IMG/VR virus record: IMGVR_UViG_3300028914_000064
Location: 1 to 64,000 of that record
DNA length: 64,000 nucleotides
From: a virus
Lineage: Duplodnaviria > Caudoviricetes
Reading direction: 5' to 3' (one strand)
Shown here: positions 13,701 to 45,856 of the stretch, one piece after another
How the letters are laid out: each line of letters starts with the position of its first letter
How positions within the stretch are numbered: position 1 is the first letter of the stretch
Made by a program: the position numbers and the translations under genes
Notes under the pieces: generated by a model
Told to the model about the DNA's origin: nothing
The model's input: only the letters and a program-made list of their open reading frames with translations
Databases searched by the model: none

Positions 13701-15092
13701 TTAACAAGCCGTGAGCAAGAAATCCCCCACCTCTAAGCGTAGCGTAGGTGGCGGGATGAATTGCTGTATACACGGCGCTTTTCTTTTGCTTTTAGAACGC
13801 CTGTTTGGTATACTGTTGGTATGAACAAGGCGATCAAGTACAGGTTATATCCCACAACTGAACAGGCTGTCATGTTTCTCAAGACCTTCGGCTGTTGTCG
13901 CAAGGTCTATAATCTTATGCTCTCTGACAAGATCGAGAGCTATAAGTCTACCGGCAAATTTGCTGCTGTGACTCCTGCAAGGTATAAGAAAGAATATCCA
14001 TACCTCAAAGAGGTAGACAGCCTTGCTCTTGCCAATGTGCAGCTTGATCTACAGGAAGCATTCGGGAATTGCTTCAGTAAGTCCCGTAAAACAAACAATG
14101 GCTTTCCAAAGTTCAAGTCTGCAAAGCGCAGCCGCAAGTCCTATACTACCAACTGCCAGTATCCAAAACCGTCAAACAAGCTAAAACAGCCCACGATCCG
14201 TATTTATGATAAAAGCATTGTCCTTCCCAAGGTTGGCTGTGTTAAAGCGGTCATTCACCGCAAACCTTCGGATGGTTGGATGCTTAAATCCGCTACGATT
14301 TCCATGGATTGTGATGGTAAGTTTTTCGCTTCATGCCTGTTTGAATACGAAGCGCTTATTGCCCTCAATAGTTCTACTGATAAAGTCTTAGGTCTTGACT
14401 ATAAATCAGACGGCCTTTACATGGACTCTGATGGCAATATTGGTTCTAACCACAAATACTATCGTGAGAGCCATGATAAACTTGCCAAAGCACAGCGTAA
14501 GTTAAAAAATAAGACCATTGGGAGTAATAACTATCGCAAACAACAGCTTAGGATAAACCGCATCCATAAACATATAGCCAATCAGCGTCTTGAAAATCTC
14601 CACACACTTTCTACCGAGATAGCCAATCGTGTAGATGTGGTATGCGTGGAGTCTCTTAACATGCGCTCAATGTCCAATAAAGGTTTTAGAAATGGCAAGG
14701 CTACAATGGATAACGGCTATGGCATGTTCCTTAACATGCTTGAGTATAAACTTGCTGACAGAGGTAAACGTTTCATCAAAGTTGATAAATGGTTTCCGTC
14801 AACGCAGCTTTGCAGTTGTTGTGGCAGCCGTAAAAAGCTTGCTCTTAATGAACGTATCTACAAATGCAGTTGTGGTCTTACCATTGACCGAGACCTTAAT
14901 GCTGCCATCAACATCAGAAATGAAGGCTTACGCATCCTGCAAAGTGCGTGAGCATCATATATGGTAGGCTAGGAACTAGCCGAACCCAAAGCCTGCGGAC
15001 ACTGTGTAAGACGCATCGTTACATTTCCTTGTAGCCTGCGCAGTGGTGGTTGAAACAGGAAGCTCCGACTTCTATAAGTCGGAGTAGTTCAC
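13701..15092 (+). mobile_element. IS200/IS605-family tnpB-only (IS1341-like) element
   Basis: TTGAT immediately 5'; left-end hairpin (CCACCT...AGGTGG); right-end hairpin CTCCGACTT-CTAT-AAGTCGGAG ending TTCAC; GC higher than flanks. Confidence 0.8.
13821..14951 (+). CDS. tnpB: TnpB RNA-guided endonuclease, catalytically intact
   Basis: MNKAIKYRLYP start; RuvC GLDY, VESL and DRDLNAAINI; zinc finger CSCCG...CSCG. Confidence 0.92.
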   Translation: MNKAIKYRLYPTTEQAVMFLKTFGCCRKVYNLMLSDKIESYKSTGKFAAVTPARYKKEYPYLKEVDSLALANVQLDLQEAFGNCFSKSRKTNNGFPKFKSAKRSRKSYTTNCQYPKPSNKLKQPTIRIYDKSIVLPKVGCVKAVIHRKPSDGWMLKSATISMDCDGKFFASCLFEYEALIALNSSTDKVLGLDYKSDGLYMDSDGNIGSNHKYYRESHDKLAKAQRKLKNKTIGSNNYRKQQLRINRIHKHIANQRLENLHTLSTEIANRVDVVCVESLNMRSMSNKGFRNGKATMDNGYGMFLNMLEYKLADRGKRFIKVDKWFPSTQLCSCCGSRKKLALNERIYKCSCGLTIDRDLNAAINIRNEGLRILQSA

Positions 15093-43292: not shown

Positions 43293-44459
43293 ATGATTAA
43301 ATCTATGAAAGTAATGTTACTTCCTAACAACGTTCAAAAGACAAGGCTATTCCAACACGCAGGAGCGGCAAGATTTCTTTATAATTGGGCTCTTTCAATG
43401 GAAGAAAAGAATTATAAATTAGGCGGAAAATTCATATCATATTATGAGCTTGCAAAAGAACTTACAGAGCTTAAGAGAACAGATGAATATGCATGGCTTA
43501 ACGAAATATCAATCACAACATGCCAAAAGGCTATAAAAGATGCCTGTGATGCCTATTCTAACTTTTTTAAGAAAAGGGCAAAATTTCCCAAATATAAATC
43601 AAAGGATAAGACAAAACCAAGTTTCTTTCAGACAGACCAGGTTATAGAATTTACCGATACACATGTAAAGCTAAGTTGTTTGTCCCTTAGCAGGAAGGCA
43701 AATAGAAAACAATTAAACTGGGTAAGACTTGCAGAACATGGCAAGATACCAATAAATGTAAAGCATAGCAATCCGAGGATAACTTACGATGGTCTTAATT
43801 GGTGGATAAGCGTAGGGATAGAATATCCTGATAAGAATGTAAACTTATCTGAAGAAGGATTAGGTGTTGATCTAGGAATAAGGAACCTTGCTGTGTGTTC
43901 TGATGATAGCATTTATCCTAACATCAATAAGACCAAGGCGATCAAAGATTTAGAGAAGAGAAAACGAAGATTGCAACGAAGTATATCCAGGAAATATGAG
44001 ATGAACAAAAAGGGGGATGAATTTGTAAAGACAAAAAATATAATAAAAGATGAAAAAAAGTTATTAAAGATGCACCACAGGTTGAGTAATATTAGGAAAA
44101 ACTATTTACATCATACATCAAAAGAAATAGTTGAAAAGAATCCTAAATTCATCTGTATTGACGACCTAAATATTCAGAGCATGATGAAGAATAAATACCT
44201 TGCAAAAGCAATTCAGGAACAGTCACTTTATGAATTTTCAAGGCAGCTTGAATATAAGAGTAATTTCAAAGGAATCCAATTTATAAAAGCAGACAGGAAA
44301 TTTCCATCATCTAAGAAATGCAGTCAATGTGGCAGGATAAAGAAAGATTTAAAACCTTATCAAAAGACATATAAGTGTGAGTGTGGAAATGTTATTGATG
44401 TACATAAGCAAGCGGCGCTCAATCTTAAAACATATGGAGAAGAGAATATTGCAGAATAA
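43293..44459 (+). CDS. tnpB: IS607-type TnpB derivative with degenerate RuvC active site, CRISPR-associated
   Basis: MIKSMKVMLLPN..Q HTH start; RuvC-I GVDLG intact; RuvC-II CIDDLN (E to D); RuvC-III IDVHKQAALNL (DRD to DVH); zinc finger intact; no tnpA nearby. Confidence 0.85.
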   Translation: MIKSMKVMLLPNNVQKTRLFQHAGAARFLYNWALSMEEKNYKLGGKFISYYELAKELTELKRTDEYAWLNEISITTCQKAIKDACDAYSNFFKKRAKFPKYKSKDKTKPSFFQTDQVIEFTDTHVKLSCLSLSRKANRKQLNWVRLAEHGKIPINVKHSNPRITYDGLNWWISVGIEYPDKNVNLSEEGLGVDLGIRNLAVCSDDSIYPNINKTKAIKDLEKRKRRLQRSISRKYEMNKKGDEFVKTKNIIKDEKKLLKMHHRLSNIRKNYLHHTSKEIVEKNPKFICIDDLNIQSMMKNKYLAKAIQEQSLYEFSRQLEYKSNFKGIQFIKADRKFPSSKKCSQCGRIKKDLKPYQKTYKCECGNVIDVHKQAALNLKTYGEENIAE

Positions 44460-44466
44460 TATTATT

Positions 44467-44634
44467 GTACCGAAAGCTGGTTCGGGAATTTACGCCTATG
44501 GAGAGTACTTGAACTTGTTAGTAGACAGCACCATCGTCGAAAGCATACTCGATGAAATAGGAATGGATCATAAAAGTATATCTTTTTATAAGTATTCAGC
44601 CGGGATTTAGTCCCTTGCATCTTATGAATTTGAC
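44467..44634 (+). ncRNA. omegaRNA-like scaffold with 3' anti-repeat (tracrRNA-like)
   Basis: CCGAA-AGCTGG-TTCGG hairpin whose loop can pair with TCAGC (44596-44600); CCTAT/ATAGG and GAGTA/TACTC stems; 44613-44634 complementary to the CRISPR repeat. Confidence 0.7.
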
Positions 44635-44934
44635 CTTTTAGAAGTATGTAAATTTGCATGGGTGTAAAGCCAGTGACTTTCTTTGCTTTGTATCCAGTAT
44701 CTTTTAGAAGTATGTAAATTTGCATGGGTGTAAAGCAGAAAAGGCTGTCAGCTACGTTAAATCCATCTTTTAGAAGTATGTAAATTTGCATGGGTGTAAA
44801 GCTTACAGACATGTCACCTTGTTCATAAAGTTCTTTTAGAAGTATGTAATTTTATATGGGTGTAAAGCAAGAAGTCACATTGAAACTATATTCGGATACT
44901 TTTAGAAGCATGTGATTTTATATGGGTGTAAAGT
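44635..44934 (+). CRISPR. CRISPR array, 5 repeats of 36 nt and 4 spacers of 30 nt
   Basis: CTTTTAGAAGTATGTAAATTTGCATGGGTGTAAAGC at 44635, 44701 and 44767; degenerate copies at 44833 and 44899. Confidence 0.95.
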
Positions 44935-44957: not shown

Positions 44958-45215
44958 ATAGATGCAAAGCGTCTTTTTGAGAAAATAACTAAAAGGCGGG
45001 CAATAGATGCAAAGCCCTCTCGCTTGCTATGTAATGCGTGACTATTATGGATGCAAAGTTGAAGTGTTTCAGAGTTAAAAGAAATAAGCTTGGGAACAAA
45101 TTATTAGCAGATATTGCTTTTAGGAGCCAAAACACCAAACCTGTTATTGTATACCTCTAACAAGGCTCCTAAAAGCTTATCAAGATGCAAAGCTAGACTA
45201 TAATGGATTCAAAGT
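44958..45215 (+). repeat. Dispersed 13-nt mini-repeats (ATRGATGCAAAGY)
   Basis: Copies at 44958, 45003, 45047, 45181 and 45203. Confidence 0.7.
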
Positions 45216-45431: not shown

Positions 45432-45775
45432 AAAATAAATATAAGAAGAATTACTAAAAGGAGAAACGTATGGAAATTGATATAGAAAAAGCAATAGATA
45501 GTCTTTTAGAAACAAATGTTGATGAAATAACATATAGTATGGATATACAAAGAAACAAACAGAAATATAGTATTGAATTTACAATAAAAAAAGAAGCTAA
45601 CGAAAATTTGGATAAAACTGATTAGAAGAATTTATTTTATAATATGGATAATATTACTAACTTGAATAAAAATGGCTAATATGTTATGCTTTGATAAAGA
45701 AAAGGCGGCAACCCCGCTTAATCATTAGTTAGTTTTAAGAAATAAAACCGCCATGAATGACCAGTTCGGGGCGGT

Positions 45776-45856
45776 TTATTTCTTTATCTGAAGAACCAAT
45801 GTTATAACAGCCACAAGCATTATTACAAAAGTAAATAATTCCATATAAGTTACCAT
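45776..45856 (-). CDS. Type I toxin-like peptide (locus 4)
   Basis: GGAGGTG RBS; MVTYMELFTFVIMLVAVITLVLQIKK; AAAACCGCC...GGCGGTTT hairpin; AGGCGG/CCGCCT complementary ends. Confidence 0.7.
   Translation of the reverse strand: MVTYMELFTFVIMLVAVITLVLQIKK

What the first reader, a model, noticed from the sequence alone, without database searches (positions are those of the whole stretch)
44467..44700. omegaRNA extended by an anti-repeat: a natural tracr-crRNA fusion
Seen: the scaffold keeps a hairpin (CCGAA-AGCTGG-TTCGG) whose loop can pseudoknot with TCAGC just before a GG, the usual IS607 end. The 30-31 nt that follow, where the guide would sit, contain CCTTGCATCTTATGAATTTGAC (44613-44634). 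This can pair with repeat positions 14-35 (about 19 bp, three G-U pairs, small bulges). Because it abuts repeat 1, the transcript could fold as scaffold, anti-repeat, 13-nt loop, repeat, spacer 1, like an engineered sgRNA, or act in trans on the other crRNAs. A second candidate, TTTACGCCTATG (about 44489-44500), pairs over 12 bp (2 G-U) with repeat CATGGGTGTAAA. Inference: a snapshot of the omegaRNA-to-tracrRNA/crRNA transition.
Basis: partly seen in the sequence, partly recalled or inferred. Interest (0 to 1): 0.82.

Follow-up and report, generated by a model that had tools for sequence, protein, structure and literature searches.

The report
Dead phage TnpB fused to captured Cas9-type array
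A phage carries a probably non-cutting TnpB protein whose guide-RNA scaffold runs, through a conserved 30-base linker, into a CRISPR array copied from its host's Cas9 (type II-A) system; the linker is mainly the array's leader end plus at most a short anti-repeat, not the long tracr-crRNA fusion first proposed.

Summary
The sequence features are real. An intact IS607-type omegaRNA scaffold (Rfam RAGATH-18, 64 bits; stems covary) ends at 44604. Exactly 30 nt follow, then five 36-nt repeats with 30-nt spacers.

The TnpB has substitutions at RuvC-II (E to D290) and RuvC-III (D to H371). It belongs to a clade (78-96% identity) that always has this layout and is under strong purifying selection (dN/dS 0.04-0.10).

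The 30-mer is conserved while the spacers turn over, so it is not an ordinary spacer. The proposed 19-bp anti-repeat:repeat helix does exist in the window. However, it shows no covariation, its energy is no better than chance in most relatives, and consensus folding does not predict it. The second candidate anti-repeat is rejected.

New finding: the array is homologous to Lachnospiraceae type II-A arrays next to cas9-cas1-cas2-csn2. The repeat is about 29/36 identical, and the 30-mer ends AATTTGAC|C against the II-A leader end ATTTGAG|G. The array was therefore captured, not made from the omegaRNA.

Only a 9-bp core (44613-44622) stays complementary to the repeat's 3' tail and to about 60 downstream mini-repeats. 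This makes a short anti-repeat plausible (about 40%) but unproven.

The scan has noted other phage dead-TnpB arrays on other DNA. Verdict: a new variant of a known kind.

The parts
43293..44459 (+). TnpB-like gene of 388 aa. RuvC-I D193 is kept, RuvC-II is E to D290, and RuvC-III is D to H371. The protein is probably nuclease-dead (TldR-like).
   Evidence: Pfam finds HTH_OrfB_IS605, OrfB_IS605 and Cas12f1-like TNB. Alignments with active relatives and with PDB 8iaz place the substitutions. dN/dS is 0.04-0.10.
44467..44604 (+). omegaRNA scaffold. It comprises hairpin H1 (44470-44485), the RAGATH-18 core (44495-44563), a terminal stem-loop (44564-44598) and a pseudoknot of 44476-44479 with 44597-44600.
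   Evidence: The Rfam hit scores 64.4 bits. In 15 loci 98.6% of cells are paired, and 0 of 500 shuffles reach the covariation score. Similarity to array-less elements ends here.
44602..44614 (+). Predicted small hairpin, GGGA (44602-44605) pairing with UCCC (44611-44614). Its loop of 4-5 nt is the only variable, indel-bearing part of the linker's 5' end.
   Evidence: It appears in the RNAalifold consensus and the alignment. The stem is invariant, so there is no covariation evidence.
44605..44634 (+). Conserved 30-nt linker in the position of the omegaRNA guide. It serves as the residual leader of the array.
   Evidence: It is conserved in all dead-clade loci while the spacers differ. It has no match elsewhere in the phage or in four candidate host genomes.
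44613..44622 (+). Invariant core C.UUGCAUCU, a candidate short anti-repeat of 9 bp for repeat positions 26-35.
   Evidence: 94.4% of cells are paired in 15 loci, with one-sided compatible changes only and a C.A mismatch in 5 loci. It is the best of 162 possible partners of the repeat tail. It is complementary to the mini-repeat AGATGCAA.
44627..44634 (+). AATTTGAC, the homologue of the type II-A leader-anchoring motif (ATTTGAG) at the leader-repeat junction.
   Evidence: Host arrays end ...AATTTGAG|GTTTTAGAAG. PMC5382924 describes ATTTGAG/GTTT as the II-A leader end. The motif is invariant in the alignment apart from single substitutions in L177 and L189.
44635..44934 (+). CRISPR array of five 36-nt repeats (starting at 44635, 44701, 44767, 44833 and 44899) and four 30-nt spacers. 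It is derived from a type II-A array.
   Evidence: Tandem and direct repeat tools find it. The repeat is about 29/36 identical to the Lachnospiraceae II-A repeat next to cas9-cas1-cas2-csn2. Spacer turnover is polarised, at the omegaRNA-proximal end.
44958..45215 (+). Mini-repeats ATAGATGCAAAGC and variants at 44958, 45003, 45047, 45181 and 45203. They keep only the 3' tail of the repeat.
   Evidence: See: all four exact GATGCAAAGY matches in the 64-kb window lie here. About 60 copies occur in 11 related loci, with unrelated sequence between them.
45116..45176 (+). Hairpin at the end of the array. A repeat-5'-like arm GCTTTTAGGAGCC pairs with its perfect complement GGCTCCTAAAAGC across a 35-nt loop.
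   Evidence: Inverted repeat I3 is 13 of 13 complementary. It is conserved with changed but still pairing arms in L008, L183, L189, L184 and L297.

Best explanation
The finding is the non-coding 3' part of a domesticated IS607-type TnpB. An intact omegaRNA scaffold (44467-44604) is joined by a conserved, two-part 30-nt linker (44605-44634) to a CRISPR array captured from a type II-A system of the Lachnospiraceae/Clostridia host.

Shown:
- The protein clade has lost two RuvC catalytic residues and is under purifying selection.
- The scaffold is structurally conserved.
- The repeat (36 nt), the spacers (30 nt), the polarity of spacer turnover and the last 8 nt of the linker (AATTTGAC|C) are homologous to host II-A arrays (ATTTGAG|G).

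Inferred:
- The host Cas1-Cas2-Csn2 machinery writes new spacers at this junction, because the phage record has no cas genes.
- Transcription of tnpB and the omegaRNA reads into the array.

The 5' two-thirds of the linker is an extension of the scaffold. It is a small GGGA/UCCC hairpin followed by the invariant core CUUGCAUCU. I think the core's most likely role (about 40%) is a short anti-repeat of about 9 bp. This would hold RNAs made of repeat 3' tail plus spacer next to the end of the scaffold, so that the non-cutting TnpB is armed in trans and binds target DNA as a repressor or blocker.

The long 22-nt anti-repeat, an sgRNA-like hairpin with repeat 1, and the second candidate at 44489-44500 are not supported.
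For: Dead clade:
- All of P0001-P0017 have D[VI][HN]KQAA, and most have IDDLN. All relatives at 64% identity or less have IEDLN and DRDxQAA. PDB 8iaz places H371 at the catalytic Asp.
- dN/dS is 0.04-0.10.

Scaffold: the Rfam hit and covariation.

Capture from type II-A:
- A genome scan found arrays with GTTTTAGAAGTATGTTATTTTGAATGGAAGTAAAAC, 30-nt spacers and the leader end AATTTGAG, next to csn2-cas2-cas1-cas9.
- The literature describes the motif (PMC5382924).
- Distal spacers are shared and proximal spacers are unique between L006/L188 and L008/L205.
- There is no cas1, cas2 or cas9 in the 126-kb record.

Linker conservation.

Short anti-repeat:
- 94.4% pairing across 15 loci, and rank 1 of 162 positions.
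- The repeat positions that differ from host repeats in every phage repeat (A29 to T, A35 to G) both create pairs with the core (read).
- Decayed repeats keep only the complementary 3' tail, in about 60 mini-repeats.
Against: - No two-sided covariation is possible because the core never varies. The repeat variant TACAAAGC gives an uncompensated C.A mismatch in 5 of 15 loci.
- Duplex energies are not better than chance in most loci.
- Folding programs prefer other partners for the core: repeat positions 12-17 in the window, and the GGGA/UCCC hairpin.
- TTGCAA is palindromic, so the core could simply be a relic of a repeat arm.
- Spacers chosen by a II-A machinery carry a 3' PAM, not the 5' TAM that a TnpB needs. 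Few such spacers would be usable by TnpB.
- Repeat positions 2-15 are identical to host repeats, as expected if host Cas9 and its tracrRNA (found at L314:3966-4090) use these crRNAs.
- No protospacer was found, so the target side cannot be read.
- D-D-H also occurs as an active RNase H-fold triad in Argonaute (established knowledge), so loss of nuclease activity is likely but not shown.
Confidence: 0.45

Rival explanations
1. Cas9 hijack only. The array is an orphan type II-A mini-array that the phage uses with the host's Cas9, tracrRNA, RNase III and adaptation proteins, for example against rival phages. The 30-mer is just its truncated leader. The dead TnpB and omegaRNA serve another purpose, such as providing transcription into the array or an unknown regulatory role, and never read the spacers.
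For: - Repeat positions 2-15, the part that pairs with the tracrRNA, are identical to host repeats. The leader-anchoring motif, the 36/30 geometry and polarised acquisition are all kept.
- There is no covariation between linker and repeat.
- Duplex energies are at chance level.
- A 3' PAM set by II-A adaptation does not fit a TnpB that needs a 5' TAM (established knowledge).
Against: - It does not explain why every member of a strongly selected dead-TnpB clade keeps the array exactly 29-31 nt after its scaffold.
- It does not explain why the core outside the roughly 10-nt leader-anchoring region is invariant.
- It does not explain why decayed repeats keep only their 3' tails, which are useless to Cas9.
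- It does not explain why the junction changed from G|G to C|C.
Confidence: 0.3
2. 44613-44634 is a 22-nt anti-repeat that folds back on repeat 1 (positions 14-35, with a 13-nt loop) to make a natural single-guide RNA carrying spacer 1. It also acts in trans on the other repeats.
For: The helix can be drawn in the window with 19 pairs. 88.8% of cells are paired across 15 loci, against 23-53% for slid controls. The stretch is conserved.
Against: - Shuffles reach the observed values in 136 of 500 trials.
- Pairs 160-196 and 166-189 fail in 6 and 10 of 15 loci.
- Repeat positions 11-26 form their own covarying hairpin.
- The 3' end of the stretch is the II-A leader motif.
- RNAalifold and per-locus folds do not give this helix.
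Confidence: 0.08
3. Fixed-guide TldR. The 30-mer is the guide of a TldR-like repressor aimed at one conserved host or phage promoter, and the array is incidental.
For: The stretch is conserved, sits exactly in the guide position, and the protein has two RuvC substitutions as in TldRs (10.1101/2023.11.30.569447).
Against: - The TAM-proximal 5-6 nt, which would be the seed, are the only variable part and carry an indel.
- No target was found in the phage genome or in four candidate host genomes beyond control level.
- The only outside match is 21 nt in a phage structural gene, without the seed.
Confidence: 0.07
4. DNA-level sites. The core CCTTGCATC and the (G)ATGCAAAGC mini-repeats are inverted and direct binding sites for a DNA-binding protein. 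A candidate is the XRE-type regulator encoded just upstream of tnpB in several loci, which could control the locus.
For: The motif recurs at irregular spacing (19-134 nt), which fits operator clusters better than crRNA units. An HTH_3 gene overlaps the tnpB start in L177, L179 and L183.
Against: The window's own locus has no HTH gene upstream. The motif is plainly the 3' end of the CRISPR repeat.
Confidence: 0.08

Closest known systems
TranC / type V-U systems: TnpB-derived effectors with a downstream CRISPR array (Jin et al., Cell 2025, cited via PMC13565253 and PMC13639567; Altae-Tran et al., PNAS 2023, PMC10691335)
   Same: A compact TnpB-like protein has a CRISPR array immediately downstream in the same orientation. 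An omegaRNA-derived scaffold lies between gene and array, there are no adaptation genes, and the system is phage-borne.
   Different: In TranC the reRNA is functionally split into a tracrRNA and a crRNA. Here the repeat is homologous to host type II-A repeats, and the whole omegaRNA, including its 3' pseudoknot strand, is kept. The RuvC site is substituted. The protein is only distantly similar to LaTranC (E 3.7e-11 over 118 residues). The PNAS paper says only that insertion of tnpB next to a pre-existing array 'cannot be ruled out'.
TldR, TnpB-like nuclease-dead repressors (10.1101/2023.11.30.569447; 10.64898/2026.09.22.753285)
   Same: Two RuvC DED positions are substituted in a whole clade. 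The fold, zinc finger and adjacent guide-RNA scaffold are intact. The system is phage-borne, has no tnpA, and is under purifying selection.
   Different: The two TldR papers searched describe a fixed guide and do not mention a CRISPR array next to TldR. Here no fixed target was found, and the scaffold runs into a turning-over array.
Type II-A CRISPR arrays of Lachnospiraceae/Clostridia (cas9-cas1-cas2-csn2; leader end ATTTGAG/GTTT, PMC5382924)
   Same: The repeat is 36 nt and about 29/36 identical, the spacers are 30 nt, there is a leader-anchoring motif, acquisition is leader-proximal, and degenerate repeats lie at the far end.
   Different: There are no cas genes or tracrRNA in the phage record. 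The junction is GAC|C instead of GAG|G, and the repeat ends AAAGC instead of AAAAC. The leader is replaced by a TnpB gene and its omegaRNA. [quoted passage not shown]
Nuclease-deficient Cas12 effectors (Cas12k, Cas12m, Cas12c), as summarised and PMC10691335
   Same: These are RNA-guided DNA binders without target cleavage that use CRISPR arrays lacking their own adaptation genes.
   Different: They are larger, long-established Cas12 families with their own repeat types. This protein has TnpB size and is 59-64% identical to active IS607 TnpBs.

Membership tests
IS607-type TnpB/omegaRNA element | A TnpB protein with HTH, RuvC and zinc-ribbon domains | tested here: met
   Pfam finds PF12323, PF01385 and PF07282. 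PDB 8iaz matches at E 8.6e-70.
IS607-type TnpB/omegaRNA element | An omegaRNA scaffold at the 3' end of the gene | tested here: met
   RAGATH-18 scores 64.4 bits, above the 44.9 cut-off. Covariation is seen in 15 loci.
IS607-type TnpB/omegaRNA element | An adjacent serine-recombinase tnpA and mobile ends | tested here: not met
   The active relative L005 has a MerR plus Resolvase TnpA. The window's upstream ORFs have no Pfam hit. The genomic position is fixed in all loci.
TldR | Two or more substitutions in the RuvC D-E-D triad, conserved in the clade | tested here: met
   E to D290 and D to H/N371 occur across P0001-P0017. All relatives at 64% identity or less keep E and D. E to D is conservative, so activity is not excluded.
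TldR | A fixed guide complementary to a conserved promoter target | tested here: not met
   The seed positions vary and carry an indel. No target was found in the phage or in four candidate hosts.
TldR | RNA-guided repression without cleavage | not testable with these tools
   This needs a reporter or interference assay.
TranC / type V-U | A TnpB-like effector stably linked to a downstream CRISPR array | tested here: met
   All of about 15 dead-clade loci have the array 29-31 nt after the scaffold.
TranC / type V-U | A guide RNA split into tracrRNA and crRNA, with a repeat:anti-repeat duplex | tested here: inconclusive
   A 9-bp complementarity is conserved. There is no covariation, and the energies are at chance level.
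TranC / type V-U | A repeat derived from the 3' part of the reRNA/omegaRNA | tested here: not met
   The repeat is about 81% identical to host type II-A repeats. Only its first 13 nt resemble 44582-44595.
Type II-A CRISPR array | A 36-nt repeat, 30-nt spacers and the leader end ATTTGAG/GTTT | tested here: met
   The motif is present with two junction changes (GAC|C).
Type II-A CRISPR array | Adjacent cas9, cas1, cas2, csn2 and tracrRNA | tested here: not met
   There are no cas1, cas2 or Cas9_REC hits in the 126-kb record, which is about 67% complete. The Cas9 search had no positive control. csn2 and a tracrRNA were not searched for in the record.
Natural single-guide (tracr-crRNA fusion) | An anti-repeat and repeat 1 forming a conserved hairpin in one transcript | tested here: not met
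   There is no covariation. The helix is absent from the RNAalifold consensus. Per-locus folds are inconsistent.

The most novel reading that the evidence does not exclude
This would be a cross-type hybrid CRISPR system. The host's type II-A adaptation machinery writes spacers into a phage array, and a phage-encoded, non-cutting TnpB reads them. It would do so through a roughly 9-bp anti-repeat that evolved in the former guide position of its omegaRNA. That would be direct natural evidence that a type V-like effector can arise by capturing a foreign array rather than by duplicating its own guide RNA.
Probability: 0.3. Interest if true: 0.85.

Novelty: new variant of a known kind. Interest (0 to 1): 0.6.

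Why it matters
Two routes have been proposed for how TnpB became Cas12. In one, the array grows out of the omegaRNA. In the other, the transposon lands beside an existing array. In the literature I could read, the second route is only said to be one that 'cannot be ruled out' (PMC10691335).

This phage clade is a clear natural case of the second route. The array is of recognisable foreign (Cas9-type) ancestry, and the old leader motif is still in place. The clade also couples that capture to loss of the nuclease.

If the short anti-repeat works, it would show how little RNA change is needed to turn a fixed-guide omegaRNA into a tracrRNA. It would also offer a very compact, multiplexable DNA binder. 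If it does not work, the locus is still an unusual example of a phage carrying a Cas9-compatible array with no cas genes.

Tried and rejected
- **Scans by the linker pattern and by a 14-nt repeat word in IMG/VR.** They returned mostly chance hits. Only the three known relatives were real.
- **Protospacer searches.** None was found in the phage's own genome or the fetched loci, in INPHARED with three arrays, or in IMG/VR with two shared spacers. The TAM or PAM side therefore could not be read.
- **Host spacers against the phage.** No convincing match, so the host was not confirmed.
- **Model in which the repeat's 5' end pairs in trans with the 5' arm of the omegaRNA terminal hairpin.** Rejected: that arm changes (ATAAAAG, ATATAAG, ATTAAAG) with compensation in cis, while the repeat stays CTTTTAG.
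- **Alternative register (30-mer positions 2-15 with repeat positions 21-34).** It works only in the window's own lineage (hand count).
- **Promoter or terminator explanation of the linker.** Nothing stood out.
Not adopted. The leader motif, the polarity and 81% identity to II-A repeats fix the orientation. I could not check the Cas13d repeat sequence.
- **The 21-nt match of the linker in L036.** It lies inside a phage structural gene, lacks the first 9 nt, and came from a scan built on that pattern. I treated it as chance.

Full report
**What is there.**
The window is part of a 126-kb IMG/VR phage record. A 388-aa ORF at 43293-44459 is a TnpB, with HTH_OrfB, OrfB_IS605 and Cas12f1-like TNB domains. 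Its closest solved structure is TnpB 8iaz (E 8.6e-70). LaTranC matches only at 3.7e-11.

Downstream, Rfam finds RAGATH-18, the omegaRNA core, at 44495-44563 with 64.4 bits. Active, array-less relatives in phages and Lachnospira genomes are 56-64% identical. One of them sits in an IS607 element with a MerR-resolvase TnpA. These relatives align up to ...CAGTAACGG and diverge after it. This places the end of the scaffold at window 44604.

Exactly 30 nt follow (44605-44634). Then come five 36-nt repeats with four 30-nt spacers (44635-44934).

**The protein clade.**
Seventeen 90%-identity clusters, 78-96% identical to the window protein, all carry D[VI][HN]KQAA where relatives have DRDxQAA. Most carry IDDLN where relatives have IEDLN. 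The next relatives, at 64% identity or less, keep E and D. H371 aligns with the catalytic Asp position of 8iaz.

Pairwise dN/dS is 0.04-0.10, with dS of 0.4 to above 2. The protein is therefore functional and old.

By the published criterion of two or more DED changes, it counts as TldR-like. E to D is conservative, and D-D-H is an active triad in Argonaute (established knowledge). Loss of cleavage is thus likely but not shown.

**Checking the observation.**
In every one of about 15 distinct dead-clade loci the same segment of 29-31 nt separates scaffold and array, while the spacers differ completely.

The 19-pair helix with repeat positions 14-35 can be drawn in the window. Across loci 88.8% of cells pair, but 136 of 500 shuffles do as well, and several pairs fail in 6-10 loci.

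- RNAduplex gives -13.3 kcal/mol in the window, in another register (p 0.04-0.08). It gives chance-level values in 10 of the 11 other loci.
- RNAalifold predicts instead a GGGA/UCCC mini-hairpin whose loop is the variable part of the linker. It also predicts an internal hairpin in the repeat. That hairpin does covary: 3 of 500 shuffles reach its score.
- Per-locus partition functions disagree with each other.
- The second candidate (44489-44500) lies in the P1 stem of RAGATH-18, is invariant in array-less elements, and loses half its pairs in other lineages.

**Where the array comes from.**
A scan of one genome per prokaryotic species with a relaxed repeat pattern found chromosomal arrays in Lachnospira rogosae, a goat-caecum Lachnospiraceae MAG and several Clostridia MAGs. 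Their repeat is GTTTTAGAAGTATGTTATTTTGAATGGAAGTAAAAC, their spacers are 30 nt, and their leaders end AATTTGAG. They lie next to csn2, cas2, cas1 and cas9. A tracrRNA lies upstream of cas9.

This is the textbook type II-A leader-repeat junction, ATTTGAG/GTTT with a 36-nt repeat (PMC5382924).

The phage repeat is about 29/36 identical to these repeats, and positions 2-15 are the same. The linker ends AATTTGAC|C. Related phages share distal spacers and differ in the spacers next to the omegaRNA. This is what leader-directed acquisition produces.

The phage record has no hits to cas1, cas2 or the Cas9 REC lobe. The record is about 67% complete, and the Cas9 search had no positive control.

I conclude that the array was captured from a type II-A system. 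It was not generated from the omegaRNA. The 3' third of the proposed anti-repeat is the leader-anchoring motif.

**What remains of the anti-repeat idea.**
The invariant core of the linker (TCCCTTGCATC, 44611-44621) lies outside the roughly 10 nt known to suffice for II-A leader function. It is conserved despite saturated synonymous divergence.

The repeat's G/A and T/C changes fall opposite U or G. G30 to A gives an uncompensated C.A mismatch in five loci.
- Sliding the partner over all 162 positions of the upstream RNA, the core is the best match to the repeat tail.
- The two tail positions that differ from host repeats in all phage repeats (A29 to T, A35 to G) both create pairs with the core.
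- Downstream of every array lie decayed units that keep only (G)ATGCAAAGC, the exact complement of UUGCAUC. There are about 60 copies in 11 loci, with unrelated sequence between them. All four exact copies in the 64-kb window lie within 233 bp.

This pattern is not expected if only Cas9, which reads the 5' part of the repeat, used the array.

Against the idea:
- The motif contains the palindrome TTGCAA.
- The spacing of the mini-repeats is irregular.
- Spacers picked by a II-A system have a 3' PAM rather than a 5' TAM.
- No protospacer was found that could show which flank matters.

**Mechanism, with odds.**
- Architecture: a dead IS607 TnpB with an intact omegaRNA, a linker that is a II-A leader end plus a scaffold extension, and a captured II-A array. 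About 0.9.
- The core acts as a short anti-repeat that arms the TnpB in trans: about 0.4.
- The array serves host Cas9 only: about 0.3.
- The long sgRNA-like fusion: below 0.1.
- A fixed-guide TldR: below 0.1.
- DNA operator sites: below 0.1.

**Comparison and novelty.**
TnpB-to-Cas12 intermediates (TranC, V-U) and dead TnpB repressors (TldR) are both published. This scan has also met other phage dead-TnpB arrays on other DNA.

What I did not find described is a TnpB clade joined to an array of demonstrable type II-A ancestry that still carries the II-A leader motif. The PNAS survey excluded arrays linked to other CRISPR types. It states that insertion next to a pre-existing array 'cannot be ruled out'.

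I could not read the TranC paper or its clade tables. The clade may already be listed there.

Noticed in passing
window 13824-14927 (+): A second TnpB gene in the same phage, 29-31% identical to the first, that keeps the usual motifs (VESLN at RuvC-II, DRDLNAA at RuvC-III). The phage therefore carries one apparently active and one dead copy.
   Followed up: partly
window 44958-45215: Five mini-repeats (ATAGATGCAAAGC and variants) follow the array at spacings of 45, 44, 134 and 22 nt. They keep only the last 13 nt of the repeat. The same kind of cluster follows the array in all related lineages, with different sequence between the copies.
   Followed up: partly
window 45116-45176: A 13-bp perfect hairpin closes the array. 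One arm looks like the first 12 nt of a repeat and the other is its complement, with a conserved loop (ACACCAAAC...TGTATACCTCTA). The arms change but still pair in L008, L183 and L189. It could be an RNA end structure or a second anti-repeat aimed at repeat 5' ends.
   Followed up: partly
window 44634/44635 and all related loci: The leader-repeat junction is GAC|C in every phage locus, against GAG|G in every host type II-A array found. Both nucleotides flanking the expected integration site changed together.
   Followed up: no
window 44582-44595 versus repeat positions 1-13: The 3' arm and tail of the omegaRNA terminal hairpin (CTTTTTATAAGTAT) resemble the start of the repeat (CTTTTAGAAGTAT): 12 of 13 with one gap. 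This could be chance in AT-rich sequence or microhomology that helped the capture.
   Followed up: no
window 45716-45844: A GC-rich hairpin (AAAACCGCC...GGGGCGGTTT) gives a weak sub-threshold Rfam match to ohsC (21 bits). It overlaps the end of a 22-codon hydrophobic ORF on the minus strand (45844 to 45776, MELFTFVIMLVAVITLVLQIKK). This looks like a type I toxin-antitoxin pair. The same element follows the arrays in L179 and L180.
   Followed up: no
L036:7880-7900 (IMGVR_UViG_3300045988_166170): 21 nt of the linker (CTTGCATCTTATGAATTTGAC) occur exactly inside a phage structural-looking gene. The first 9 nt of the linker do not match. It could be chance, because the scan was built on this pattern, or the trace of an old protospacer.
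   Followed up: partly
L177, L179, L183 (loci of relatives): In several dead-clade loci a 109-aa XRE-type HTH gene overlaps the start of tnpB. The window's own locus has small ORFs with no Pfam hit instead.
   Followed up: partly
alignment A2, columns 13 and 135 (window 44477/44599): The pseudoknot pair C-G is broken (C.A) in 4 of 15 dead-clade loci. The cis 3' strand of the omegaRNA may therefore be under weaker constraint than the rest of the scaffold.
   Followed up: no
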